DNA from: an uncultured Methanosarcinales archaeon
Lineage (GTDB): Archaea > Nanobdellota > Nanobdellia > Woesearchaeales > B54-G15
Assembly (NCBI GenBank): GCA_964519225.1
Contig: CAZFJK010000006.1
Location: forward strand, 1-41,544
Direction of reading: 5' to 3'
Length of the DNA stretch: 41,544 bases
Position numbers: made by a program. How positions within the stretch are numbered: position 1 is the first letter of the stretch; each line of letters starts with the position of its first letter. Shown here piece after piece: positions 30,601 to 33,600 of the stretch.

Positions 30601-33600
30601 TCTTGAAAACAATACGGCTGTTGAAGTTATTCAAGAGCTTAAGGAAAAGCTGCGAAAGGAATTGGTTGGGCGTGAAGTAAGCAGGAGTGAACTAAAAAAC
30701 ATAATTCTTAGCACACTGAAGGATGAAATAAGTTCTGTTATAAAAGGTATTGACTTGGTTGAACTAGTAAAAGAAAAGCTAAGGAAGAAAAAACCATGCG
30801 TGGTTTGTTTCTTTGGCGTTAATGGCAGTGGAAAAACAACAACGATAGCTAAAATAGCGCACTTGCTAAAGAAAAACGGATTAAGTGTTGTTCTTGCAGC
30901 TTCTGATACTTTTAGAGCTGCTGCTATCGATCAATTAGAGGAACATGCAAAGCGACTTGGCATTAAACTTATAAAACATCGTTATGGTGCTGATGCTGCT
31001 GCTGTGGCTTTTGATGCAATAAAACATGCTGAAGCAAAAGGCATAGATGTTGTGCTAATTGACACGGCAGGAAGAATGCACAGCGATGTAAATTTAATGG
31101 ATGAAATGAAAAAGATTGTTAGGGTTGCAAAACCTGATCTGAAAGTGTTTGTCGGTGAAAGCATAGTTGGAAATGATTGTGTTGAACAAGCAAGAAGATT
31201 CGATCAAGCTGTTGGTATTGACGCTGTTATCTTAACAAAAGCCGATGTGGATGAAAAAGGTGGTGCTATTGTTTCGATAAGCAAAGTTGTTGGAAAACCA
31301 ATAGCTTTTCTCGGTATTGGACAAGGTTATGATGATTTAGTGAAAGTTAATAAAGAATCTATACTTCGTTCTGTTGGGATTTAATGACTAGTCTAAGAAA
31401 AATTTATTAAGAAAGAAAAGTGTCGATCTAAAATGAATATAATCTTTACGCGGCATGCAGAGTAAGGCTCAAAAAGAGGGGCTTCTTAAACATGAAATTG
31501 TTGACGCTATTAAATATCCCGATAAAATCATAAAGAAACGTGGTAAATATCTCTTTAGAAAAAGATTAGAAAAAGGAACCATTGAAGTTTGTTGCGAGAA
31601 AACAGAAAGAAATATAATGATAATTACAGTTTATTGGATATAAAATGGAAATTAGCTATGATAAAGAAGCGGATGCGATGTATATAGAATTTCGTAAAGG
31701 TAAATTCGCTAAAAACAAAAAGATAGGTGACTTTACAATCATAGATCTGGATGCTGAGGGGAATATTTTGGGTATTGAACTTCTTGAAGTAAGCAAAAGA
31801 ATACCAATCGAATCTCTTACAGAAATACATGTAAAAAATTTGCTTGCAGTTGCACGATAAAACAGATCTTTTATAAATGGGAAAGTTTTTTAAACAAAGA
31901 TTGCTTTTCTGGTGTAAAAGAGGTGAAATAGAATGAAATTGATAACACAGCCTGGCGATGCGCTCAAGGCGATGAAGAAAGAAAAGAACTTGAATAAGTC
32001 GATAGGAATTCTTGCCATAGCAGGAATCTTGTTTGGGATTTCTGTGCTAATAAGTGGAACAAGTTTAGCGAATTTAGTGCCGCAAATACAAGCCTGGATG
32101 ACAGGAACATACTGGGCTGCATTGATTACATTCTTGTTTGTGTTTGTTGGAGGTCTTTTCCTCGGATGGTTAGTAAAAGTAGTAATGACAACACTCGGCT
32201 GCAAAGGAACTTATTTTGGAGGGTTAACAGCTGTTGCATATCCAGCATTTATTCTTTCGGTTGCGGGGATTATTTCAGCTTTAGTGAATTATATTCCATA
32301 CATCGGTAGCATACTGGCTTTCTTGGTAACAGTAATCTTAGCTTGTGTTGCTTTTGCATTGACTTACAGGACAATAAAAGAATTGTTTGCTACTGACGTC
32401 GTAACAGCATTTATTGGATTATTGGTAGTATGGTCTGCAGTTGCTGCTGCTGGTGCTGCAACAGTTCCAGGAATAATGCTAGCAGTAGGAAAGATTCCGT
32501 TCATAGCAAAGGTTCCTGGTTTGCTTTAAACCATTTCTTTTTTTATTTTTTAAAAATGAAAGAAATTGGTTATTATGTTGGTGTTGTTGGGTGTGTTGTA
32601 GTTCTTCTTTTTGGCATAGCAAGTATAATCTACGGCGTTTTGCAACCAGCCGAATTCAAGCAATTAGGAGCATACTACGGCATTTGGGGAATTGGCTGTG
32701 CTATTTTTGGATTTATTGGTTTACGAATGACAAAAAGAAAAGCAAGAGGTTACAAAGTTGCAGGAAATCTATTACTGTTAATTTTTGGAATTGGTAGTGC
32801 AATAACAATGATCAGTATGTTCATTGGTCCTGCTTTAATGATTATCAGTGCGATAATTGGCTTTAAGCATAGTTAAAAGCAGGCTTAGGGAAATATAATT
32901 TTGTTATTGTAGAAAACTCCCTTTTTCAGCTTAACTGGTCGCCATTCATCTAGGATTAATTCTGCTTTCAGCCATGATGCGAGCTTTTTTGGATTTCCTA
33001 TTGTTGCGCTTAGTGCTATTAAATGCAGGTTTGGCAGTAAACGTTGAAGGATTGTTATCAGAATTTCAAGTGTTGGTCCTCTGCCGACATCATTCAAAAG
33101 GTGGATTTCATCTATTATTGCAACGCCTATTTTTCTTAGCCATGGAGCATGATGCCTGATGAGCGAATCAAATTTTTCTGCTGTGCAGACAATCAGGTCA
33201 TATTTATCAAGATATGGATCTGCTGAATCGAGATTTCCAATTGACAGAGTGATCTTACAAAGATGAGCATATCTATGCGTGAATAAATCGTATTTCTCGT
33301 TTGCTAATGCTTTTAATGGCACAAGGTAAATTGCTTTTTTTCTATGCTCTAAGATTTCTTTTAGCATTGCTAGTTCAGCGACAAGTGTTTTTCCACTTGC
33401 TGTAGGTGTGCATACGAGAAGATTTTTTCTTTTAAGCAAACCAGATTTGATTGATTTTTCCTGGCATGGAGTAAGCTTTTCGATGCCTTCTTTTTCAAGA
33501 ACTGCAAAAAGTTCTTCTGGAATTTCTTTTCTTATGTCTTTTAGGAGCATGTGCTGTTAATTTTTTTCTGTTTATTTAAATTTTATATATCTCTGCGGCA

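What a model noticed while it worked through the whole genome (the two positions that open the first line are those of the whole stretch)
32885..33550. Hel308 helicase split into two unlinked genes, conserved across the order
Hel308 is encoded as two separate genes. A 221-aa RecA1 half lies at C6:32885-33550. A 480-aa half with RecA2, winged helix, ratchet and HhH domains lies at C22:8579-10021. There is no split intein. The split is present in nearly all sampled relatives, with the halves tens to hundreds of kb apart, so the helicase must assemble from two polypeptides.
Evidence so far: Against PRK02362 the N half covers residues 5-217 (278 bits) and the C half covers residues 231-703 (480 bits). 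Helicase motifs I-III lie in the first half and IV-VI in the second. The N half is a 197-281-aa frame in 37 of 40 relatives. The halves lie 37, 332 and 275 kb apart in G017, G026 and G023. predict_complex scored 0.83 with a best control of 0.00. That mark was reached by 51 of 78 solved complexes and by 2 of 108 mismatched pairs. The runs share at least 98% of their contacts and the partner's pLDDT is at least 89.
(Added by a program. Inside this text positions count along the whole contig: contig position 1 is position 1 of the stretch shown here. "Call 12" and the like, gene names such as g00115 and contig names such as C1 are that model's own, and its searches are not shown. The text may have been shortened before it was handed on; [...] marks where a part breaks off. 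The agent that wrote the report below was given it as the finding of a first reader that could run no searches.)

Follow-up and report, generated by a model that had tools for sequence, protein, structure and literature searches.

The report
Hel308 helicase encoded as two genes
In this tiny archaeon and nearly all its relatives, the DNA-repair helicase Hel308 is encoded by two distant genes whose products probably join after translation; this adds one more case to the split genes already known in related archaea.

Summary
Window 32885-33550 (-) is an intact 221-aa gene for the RecA1 half of Hel308 (278 bits, profile 5-217 of 739). The rest (RecA2, winged helix, ratchet, HhH; 480 aa, 480 bits) is a separate gene on contig C22. 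Record titles place the genome in Woesearchaeales.

In 121 sampled genomes of the order, none has a full-length frame. 107 have both halves, 7 only the C half, 4 only the N half and 3 neither. Where both sit on one contig they lie 29-423 kb apart. Sister orders mostly lack Hel308 and have it fused when present.

The break lies in a variable loop about 15 residues inside RecA2, so the N half carries the first two RecA2 strands. All helicase motifs are invariant. N-half dN/dS is about 0.07-0.11. No intein, RNA complementarity or flanking small RNA was found.

The complex model scores 0.81 against a best control of 0.00, but it may only recall solved single-chain Hel308 structures.

Best reading: an obligate two-subunit helicase. 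It is a new member of the known kind of split genes in Nanoarchaeota. No expression or activity data exist.

The parts
32885..33550 (-). Gene for the N half of Hel308 (221 aa): the RecA1 domain plus the first two beta-strands of RecA2. The stop codon is at 32885-32887.
   Evidence: ORF. PRK02362 278.3 bits, profile 5-217. Residues 10-217 align to residues 8-212 of P. furiosus Hjm, 2zj2.
33386..33406 (-). Motif I (Walker A), PTASGKT, residues 49-55.
   Evidence: P49, T50, S52, G53, K54 and T55 are invariant in 60 aligned N halves.
33101..33112 (-). Motif II, DEIH, residues 147-150.
   Evidence: D147, E148 and H150 are invariant.
33002..33010 (-). Motif III, SAT, residues 181-183.
   Evidence: S181, A182 and T183 are invariant.
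32888..32941 (-). C-terminal tail, residues 204-221 (RPVKLKKGVFYNNKIIFP): the linker plus two strands that belong structurally to RecA2. This is the proposed docking element for the C half.
   Evidence: R204, P205 and L208 are invariant. V206, G211 and F220 are at least 90% conserved. The tail maps to strands 198-205 and 208-211 of the modelled fused relative. The tightest predicted contacts are N 208-213 with C 159-165.
33571..33590 (-). A/T-rich TATA-like stretch 21-40 nt upstream of the ATG, possibly the gene's own promoter. The gene is monocistronic: its upstream neighbour is divergent and its downstream neighbour convergent.
   Evidence: Sequence read and ORF layout. This is inference only. 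No archaeal promoter model was run, and the sigma-70 scan does not apply.

Best explanation
Hel308 in this Woesearchaeales archaeon is a two-subunit enzyme made from two unlinked genes. An ancestral single gene, still fused in sister orders, was broken once at or near the base of the order. The break fell in a surface loop about 15 residues after the RPV linker. The pieces were then separated by genome rearrangement.

The 221-aa subunit carries RecA1 (motifs Q, I, Ia, II, III) plus the first two beta-strands of RecA2. The 480-aa subunit carries the rest of RecA2 (motifs IV, V, VI), the winged helix, the ratchet and the HhH domains. Each is translated from its own start to its own stop.

The subunits then associate. 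The N subunit's tail strand adds to the RecA2 sheet of the C subunit (strand complementation). RecA1 packs against RecA2, the winged helix and the ratchet, as in single-chain Hel308. This rebuilds the composite ATP site and the ring around single-stranded DNA.

Shown here: gene structure, distribution, break position, motif conservation and purifying selection on the N half. Inferred: assembly, the strand-complementation mode and retained 3'-5' helicase function.
For: Gene structure:
- Both are intact single-copy genes.
- 0 of 121 order genomes carry a full-length match.
- The N half is in 110 of 121 genomes, one copy each.
- Both halves, whole or as fragments, are in 107 of 121.
- The halves lie 29-423 kb apart in the 10 genomes where I saw both on one contig, four of them single-contig assemblies.

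One shared break point:
- 116 of 124 distinct stand-alone N halves end within -1 to +5 residues of this one.
- 28 stand-alone C halves begin 2-24 residues upstream of the residue aligned to this one's first. L013 shows no upstream Met, and this one's own start is the shortest.

Fused relatives:
- Single frames of 687-863 aa at 605-770 bits occur in 9 genomes of other orders.
- The same is seen in 2 of 41 genomes of one sister order.
- In these proteins the break maps to an indel-variable loop, residues 212-216, in the lowest-pLDDT block of that region.

Selection:
- Catalytic motifs are invariant in 60 N halves and 31 C halves.
- dN/dS is 0.07-0.11 in the five closest N-half pairs with dS below 1.

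Complex model:
- Score 0.81, best control 0.00. The mark was reached by 116 of 157 solved complexes and 2 of 215 mismatched pairs.
- Runs share at least 97% of contacts, and the partner's pLDDT is at least 89.
- The tightest contacts are C 159-165 with N 208-213 in parallel register.

No room for an intein: Pfam finds none in either half, and the ends leave only 4 and 7 residues unaligned to Hjm.
Against: - There is no expression, proteomic or biochemical evidence.
- The complex model may only reproduce solved single-chain Hel308 structures (2zj2, 2p6r, 2va8), so it shows likeness, not binding.
- Eleven of 121 genomes show only one half. Two of them are rated 100% complete: G106 (C only, 20 contigs) and G096 (N only, 20 contigs). 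Assembly gaps are a plausible cause but unproven.
- dN/dS was measured only for the N half. All C-half pairs in hand were too divergent.
- The correlation of N and C distances (r = 0.69 over 378 pairs from 28 genomes) is expected from shared descent and is not evidence of binding.
- Summed, the two halves reach 758 bits, below the 887-bit curated cut-off. The fused relatives also stay below it.
Confidence: 0.8

Rival explanations
1. The halves have drifted into separate jobs. Each would work alone or with another partner, for example the C half as an ATP-independent DNA-binding or scaffold protein and the N half as a module for another helicase. No Hel308 heterodimer would form.
For: Seven genomes show only the C half and four only the N half. 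They include G106 and G096, both rated 100% complete. Several genomes carry an extra helicase of about 650 aa that scores 166-183 bits on the Hel308 profile.
Against: The ATPase motifs of both halves are invariant across the order. That conservation makes sense only if a composite ATP site still forms. The N-half tail is conserved to its penultimate residue, F220. 107 of 121 genomes have both halves. Every single-half genome is a multi-contig draft. Relatives of G106 in the same genus show three matches at E <= 1e-30 where G106 shows one, though I did not inspect those rows.
Confidence: 0.08
2. The two products are joined covalently, either by trans-splicing of the two mRNAs (as for split tRNAs in Nanoarchaeum) or by protein trans-splicing or ligation.
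For: [quoted passage not shown] Contiguous inteins occur elsewhere in this gene in some genomes.
Against: Each gene has its own start and stop at a conserved position. Pfam finds no intein domain, and the ends leave no room for one. The RNA duplex energy between the N gene's 3' region and the C gene's 5' region is unremarkable. In G000, 23.5% of shuffles reach the observed value. The cognate mean is -38.7 against -35.5 for non-cognate pairs (sd 9-11), and ranks are scattered. Rfam finds nothing above threshold at either locus.
Confidence: 0.03
3. The split is an assembly or binning artefact, or the gene is a decaying pseudogene.
For: The genome is a 53-contig draft. Some relatives' C halves are cut by contig ends.
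Against: The same break is seen in 110 genomes from different family-level groups. Four of these are single-contig genomes (G016, G025, G085, G097), with the halves 37-423 kb apart. Frames are intact, motifs are invariant, and dN/dS is about 0.1.
Confidence: 0.02

Closest known systems
Single-chain archaeal Hel308/Hjm (structures 2zj2 of P. furiosus, 2p6r of A. fulgidus, 2va8 of S. solfataricus)
   Same: Same family by sequence. N half residues 10-217 align to Hjm 8-212 (211 bits). C half residues 8-469 align to Hjm 230-687 (313 bits). All SF2 motifs and the archaeal domain 4 (Pfam PF21280) are present. The predicted subunit arrangement matches the single-chain architecture.
   Different: It is two polypeptides from unlinked genes. 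The chain is interrupted inside RecA2 after its second strand. About six residues of the loop are missing in this genome compared with Hjm. The summed score of 758 bits is below the 887-bit curated cut-off.
Split protein genes of Nanoarchaeota (N. equitans and Nst1: reverse gyrase, large helicase-related protein NEQ003-409, alanyl-tRNA synthetase and others; PMC3655853 Table 1, passages read)
   Same: One protein is encoded by two unlinked genes in a genome-reduced DPANN archaeon of the same phylum, with assembly after translation proposed. That set already includes an SF2 helicase (Lhr).
   Different: Here a different gene is split (Hel308, while Lhr is intact in this genome). The order is different, and the organisms are mostly mesophilic and uncultured. 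The split is fixed across a very large order, 121 family-level groups sampled, rather than in one or two species. I did not compare the Lhr break position with this one.
Split-intein DNA polymerase of N. equitans (NEQ068-528; named in PMC3655853 Table 1; the intein mechanism is recalled)
   Same: Two distant genes encode one enzyme in the same phylum.
   Different: No intein halves are present here, so no peptide bond is expected to form. Contiguous inteins do occur in the C half of some relatives, but at other sites inside RecA2.

Membership tests
Hel308/Hjm (Ski2-like SF2 helicase) | RecA1 with motifs Q, I, Ia, II (DExH) and III | tested here: met
   Q30, P49-T55, P78/L79, D147-E148-H150 and S181-T183 are invariant in 60 N halves. 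Pfam DEAD scores 107 bits.
Hel308/Hjm (Ski2-like SF2 helicase) | RecA2 with motifs IV, V and VI | tested here: met
   F21, T108-T110-L111-A112-G114 and Q145-G148-R149-G151-R152 are invariant in 31 C halves. Pfam Helicase_C matches. Assigning these residues to named motifs is my own reading.
Hel308/Hjm (Ski2-like SF2 helicase) | Winged helix, ratchet (domain 4) and C-terminal helix-hairpin-helix domains | tested here: met
   PF21280, archaeal helicase domain 4, scores 119 bits. The alignment runs to residue 687 of 720 in 2zj2 and to 681 of 702 in 2p6r. HHH_5 is detected in relatives' C halves but not in G000's at E 0.001.
Hel308/Hjm (Ski2-like SF2 helicase) | Curated NCBIfam equivalog cut-off (887 bits for PRK02362) | tested here: not met
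   The halves score 278.3 and 480.4 bits separately. Fused relatives in sister orders also score only 605-770 bits. The shortfall therefore reflects lineage divergence as well as the split.
Hel308/Hjm (Ski2-like SF2 helicase) | Single polypeptide | tested here: not met
   Two genes on different contigs. This is the variant feature.
Hel308/Hjm (Ski2-like SF2 helicase) | DNA-dependent ATPase and 3'-5' helicase activity | not testable with these tools
   Needs biochemistry.
Unlinked split protein genes of Nanoarchaeota | Two separately translated, unlinked ORFs that together cover one protein that is single-chain elsewhere, both conserved | tested here: met
Unlinked split protein genes of Nanoarchaeota | The products assemble into an active enzyme | tested here: inconclusive
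   There is only a structure prediction: 0.81 against a best control of 0.00, a mark reached by 116 of 157 solved complexes and 2 of 215 mismatched pairs. It may stem from memory of single-chain structures.
Split-intein (protein trans-splicing) genes | An N-intein at the end of the first product, a C-intein at the start of the second, and a nucleophile at +1 | tested here: not met
   Pfam finds no intein domain. The N half ends 4 residues after its last Hjm-aligned residue. The C half starts 7 residues before its first.

The most novel reading that the evidence does not exclude
The split is kept by selection rather than being a frozen accident. With the RecA1 'engine half' as a separate, independently expressed subunit, Woesearchaeales could switch Hel308 on by controlled assembly, for instance only during replication stress. 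They could also let the free C half bind forks as an inactive placeholder. That would make this a naturally regulated two-component SF2 helicase, held together by donation of a beta-strand from one subunit to the other's RecA fold.
Probability: 0.12. Interest if true: 0.75.

Novelty: new member of a known kind. Interest (0 to 1): 0.5.

Why it matters
It would be a natural, long-lived case of an SF2 helicase motor whose ATP site and DNA-encircling ring are built from two chains, with the break inside a RecA fold. That gives helicase biochemists a ready-made split system for studying communication between the RecA domains.

It also shows that gene fission of information-processing enzymes in DPANN archaea is not limited to the extremely reduced Nanoarchaeum lineage. 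Here it became fixed across a very large order.

There is a practical side for annotation. Pipelines and surveys that demand full-length coverage will score Hel308 as absent or partial in these genomes. The 2024 Ski2-family survey removed partial sequences (PMC10946056, methods passage read).

Tried and rejected
- **RNA-level joining.** Duplex energies between the N gene's 3' region and the C gene's 5' region were computed for 27 cognate pairs against all non-cognate pairs, plus 200 shuffles for G000. There was no signal.
- **Flanking small RNAs** (C/D-box sRNAs flank split genes in N. equitans, PMC3491384). Rfam found one sub-threshold chance match at L001:1089-1178, 21.4 bits against a gathering score of 40.
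- **Promoter and terminator scan.** The tool offers only a bacterial sigma-70 and intrinsic-terminator scan. It found fewer sites than the shuffles gave and does not apply to archaea.
- **Expression.** No RNA holder was listed for window 32600-33800. Laying three DNA runs gave only short contigs of 172-236 bases that do not span the gene ends, so they say nothing.
- **Conserved neighbours.** FtsY lies beside the N half in 58 of 141 loci, but not in G000. No real conserved neighbour of the C half was found; the largest cluster looks like an antisense shadow frame.
- **Trees of the N and C parts with fused relatives**. Eight of nine fused sequences group together. One (G154) sits among the split sequences with weak support (0.2-0.5). 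The trees are unrooted FastTree trees and do not fix the order of events.
- **C-half dN/dS.** Not attempted, because all C halves in hand come from different family-level groups and are saturated.
- **Literature.** Six searches found no report of a split Hel308: Hel308 + 'split gene'; Hel308 + DPANN; 'split genes' + Nanoarchaeum equitans + helicase; Woesearchae + split; 'split helicase' + RecA; Hel308 + Nanoarchae. I read passages, not whole texts or supplements, of PMC10946056, PMC8407392, PMC3655853, PMC3491384, PMC8301817, PMC6349945 and the preprint 10.64898/2026.05.13.725050. Supplementary tables of the Ski2 survey (PMC10946056) could list such fragments and were not seen.
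Full report
**The observation**

Window 32885-33550 on the minus strand is an open frame of 221 codons with its own ATG and stop. It scores 278.3 bits on the NCBIfam Hel308-type model PRK02362, covering profile positions 5-217 of 739. The model named helicase_Hel308 gives 220.9 bits. Pfam sees only the DEAD domain.

The gene stands alone. The downstream neighbour is convergent and ends 9 nt away. The upstream neighbour is divergent, 120 nt away, and an A/T-rich TATA-like stretch lies 21-40 nt before the ATG.

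The assembly is 869 kb in 53 contigs at about 36% G+C and is rated 97% complete. It holds exactly one further strong match to the profile. That match is at C22:8579-10021 (+), 480 aa, 480.4 bits, positions 230-705. A third, weak match on C4 is an intact Lhr with DEAD, Helicase_C, WH_Lhr and DEAD_assoc in one frame.

The C half carries Helicase_C and the archaeal helicase domain 4.

Against solved structures:
- N half residues 10-217 align to residues 8-212 of P. furiosus Hjm (2zj2).
- C half residues 8-469 align to residues 230-687 of the same protein.
- A. fulgidus and S. solfataricus Hel308 are the next best matches.

**Who the organism is**

Relatives of the N half in named public records are almost all titled Candidatus Woesearchaeota, Nanoarchaeota or Nanoarchaeia. 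The order is therefore Woesearchaeales. This name comes from those titles; the G handles themselves are unnamed.

**Distribution in the order**

I sampled 121 genomes of the order, each from a different family-level group.
- 120 have a match to the profile, and none reaches the full-length cut-off.
- By my count of the listed rows, 103 genomes have a C-type match at 323-486 bits that starts at profile position 179-342.
- A search with the N half itself finds it in 110 of 121 genomes. Each has one copy, at 49-68% identity, in frames of 197-350 aa.

I re-examined 20 doubtful genomes one by one. Eleven more have C-half fragments. These are cut by contig ends, split by an intein or broken into adjacent frames. 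One more has an N-half fragment at a contig end.

| Status in the 121 genomes | Count | Genomes |
|---|---|---|
| Both halves (whole or fragment) | 107 | |
| C half only | 7 | G019, G048, G053, G058, G103, G106, G117 |
| N half only | 4 | G010, G024, G084, G096 |
| Neither | 3 | G006, G054, G111 |

G054, G058 and G111 were not re-examined individually. All single-half genomes are multi-contig drafts. Two of them, G106 and G096, are rated 100% complete, so true loss of one half in a few lineages cannot be excluded. One genome in this sample (G112) is unpublished. It has both halves, and the counts do not depend on it.

**The halves are unlinked**

I saw both halves on one contig in ten genomes.

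| Genome | Distance between halves |
|---|---|
| G021 | 29 kb |
| G016 | 37 kb |
| G119 | 54 kb |
| G034 | 92 kb |
| G098 | 93 kb |
| G085 | 170 kb |
| G022 | 275 kb |
| G108 | 307 kb |
| G025 | 332 kb |
| G097 | 423 kb |

G016, G025, G085 and G097 are single-contig assemblies, so the split is not an assembly artefact.

**Outside the order**

A sample of 301 genomes of the phylum again has no match above the cut-off. Among the at most 83 genomes from other orders:
- Nine carry a single frame of 687-863 aa covering profile positions about 1-710 at 605-770 bits. These are ordinary fused Hel308.
- One (G264) has a C-half-like frame on a 3.1-kb contig. Other members of its family have nothing, and a neighbouring frame looks, by eye, like the repeat protein upstream of G000's C half. 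This is probably a mis-binned contig.
- Most have no Hel308 at E <= 1e-30.

In the order that contains G154, 2 of 41 genomes have Hel308, both fused. The pattern is therefore fused or lost outside the order and split inside it. The phylum sample includes two unpublished genomes (G307, G308), both with C halves. Nothing rests on them.

**Where the break is**

I aligned nine fused proteins with ten N halves and nine C halves.
- The N halves run through the RPV(K/E)L linker and the following hairpin (GVYxxxxIxF), then stop.
- The C halves begin with a short strand-like segment (MxxKxIxxxxx) followed by the conserved INLALDTI helix.
- Between the two, the fused proteins have a loop of variable length.

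An AlphaFold model was made of the natural fused protein of G154 (mean pLDDT 87.5, pTM 0.81, nine-row alignment). It places strands at residues 198-205 and 208-211, a loop at 212-216, a strand at 217-219 and a helix at 227-237. The 211-220 block has the lowest confidence in that region (74).

In this numbering the N half ends at 212, relatives' C halves start at about 215 and G000's C half starts at 225. The chain is therefore cut in a flexible, indel-tolerant loop. The cut is not at the RecA1/RecA2 border: the N half keeps the first two strands of RecA2.

The break point is shared across the order.
- 116 of 124 distinct stand-alone N halves end within -1 to +5 residues of G000's end. The other eight are 6 to 65 residues longer. 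The raw count of 130 in that call includes six fused proteins, which I excluded.
- 28 stand-alone C halves start 2-24 residues upstream of the residue aligned to G000's first. For L013 no upstream Met was found. G000's own C half is the shortest, with a stop codon directly before its ATG.

**Evidence that both halves are in use**

In 60 N halves, the Q motif, motifs I, Ia, II and III, and the RP..L linker are invariant. F220, the penultimate residue, is at least 90% conserved. In 31 C halves, motifs IV, V and VI and the strand G159-E160-x-I162 are invariant.

Nei-Gojobori dN/dS for the closest N-half pairs is 0.111, 0.079, 0.083, 0.087 and 0.074 at dS 0.41-0.95. It stays at 0.05-0.11 in more saturated pairs (my own implementation). 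The C half could not be tested this way.

Pairwise distances of the two halves correlate across 28 genomes (Pearson 0.69 over 378 pairs). This shows common vertical descent, not binding.

**Assembly**

Complex prediction was run with my two alignments.
- Score 0.81, best of three controls 0.00.
- The mark was reached by 116 of 157 solved complexes and 2 of 215 mismatched pairs.
- The runs share at least 97% of contacts, and the partner's pLDDT is at least 89.
- The tool warns that its calibration holds only roughly with a user's own alignments.

The most confident contacts pair C-half residues 159-165 with N-half residues 208-213 at a constant offset of 49, a parallel strand pair. That is exactly the donated strand docking onto the strand that follows motif VI. 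Further contacts bring motifs I, II and III (N 49-51, 148-156, 182-186) against motifs V and VI (C 113-118, 144-153). RecA1 also contacts the winged helix and ratchet (C 218-227, 268-271, 391-398).

This is the single-chain Hel308 architecture. Such structures are solved, so the pass may be from memory. It shows that the pair is compatible with that fold, not that it binds.

**Alternatives tested**

- **Intein.** Pfam finds none in either half, and the ends leave no room. Contiguous LAGLIDADG inteins do sit inside RecA2 of the C half in G093, G072 and G087, so inteins visit this gene but not the junction.
- **RNA trans-splicing.** There is no cognate complementarity and no Rfam family at either locus.
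- **Expression.** This could not be assessed.

**Comparison with what is known**

Unlinked split protein genes are a described hallmark of Nanoarchaeota. N. equitans has ten and Nst1 has eight. They include reverse gyrase and the large helicase-related protein, and assembly after translation has been proposed for them (PMC3655853, Table 1 and surrounding passages). A DPANN review lists split reverse gyrase, tRNA synthetases and Dph1/2, the last also in Woesearchaeota (PMC6349945, passage).

None of the passages I read mentions Hel308, and six full-text searches found no report. The 2024 Ski2-family survey discarded partial sequences (PMC10946056, methods passage), which would hide these halves.

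I therefore rate this a new member of a known kind. Three features stand out: the split is fixed across a very large order, the cut falls inside a RecA fold, and an SF2 motor would have to be rebuilt from two chains.

**Verdict**

The most likely mechanism is an obligate heterodimer held partly by strand complementation (confidence 0.8). Biochemical proof is missing. Interest is moderate, at 0.5.

Noticed in passing
window 35250-40499 (+): A 1749-aa CDC48/VCP-type AAA ATPase interrupted by two inteins, each with a LAGLIDADG endonuclease. Pfam reports Intein_splicing in 2 stretches and LAGLIDADG_3 in 2 stretches.
   Followed up: partly
L196:42-3131 (G093), L197:205-3363 (G072), L198:478-3294 (G087): In some Woesearchaeales the Hel308 C half carries a contiguous LAGLIDADG intein inside RecA2, giving frames of 938-1052 aa. 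By my mapping the site is near motif V in G093 and G072 and in motif VI in G087. G079 shows the same pattern but was not examined.
   Followed up: partly
L198:339-641 (G087); G103:C2:15108-16587: The C half is fragmented further. In G087 the HhH domain sits on an adjacent 100-aa frame. In G103 the C half is two adjacent frames that break near profile position 374-393. Whether this is a frameshift, a sequencing error or a second fission was not resolved.
   Followed up: no
L146 (G006:C5), L160 (G096:C2), L164 (G087:C52): A separate helicase of about 650 aa scores 166-183 bits on the N-terminal two thirds of the Hel308 profile. It occurs in several genomes of the order, including G006, which has neither Hel308 half, and G096, which lacks the C half. 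Pfam sees only DEAD and Helicase_C.
   Followed up: partly
L001:1498 (G000:C22:8579): G000's C half starts 2-24 residues later than those of 28 relatives, with a stop codon directly before its ATG. It therefore lacks the short strand-like N-terminal segment the others have. It sits 13 nt after a 125-aa membrane-protein gene on the same strand and may be co-transcribed with it.
   Followed up: partly
L080:4762-6549 and 57 other N-half loci: An FtsY-type SRP receptor gene (SRP54 GTPase domain, 235 bits) lies next to the N-half gene in 58 of 141 loci, but not in G000. This is probably residual synteny rather than a functional link.
   Followed up: partly
G154's order and other orders of the class: Hel308 is missing at E <= 1e-30 from most genomes of the sister orders (2 of 41 have it in G154's order). 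Woesearchaeales keep it, in split form, in nearly all genomes.
   Followed up: partly
window 31455-31860 (+): Two small adjacent frames of 62 and 71 aa look like a toxin-antitoxin-type pair. This is from recall only; no family search was run.
   Followed up: no
L174 (G264:C67, 3.1-kb contig): A Woesearchaeales-type C half sits in a genome of another order whose family otherwise lacks Hel308. A neighbouring frame looks, by eye, like the repeat protein upstream of G000's C half. This is probably a mis-binned contig.
   Followed up: partly
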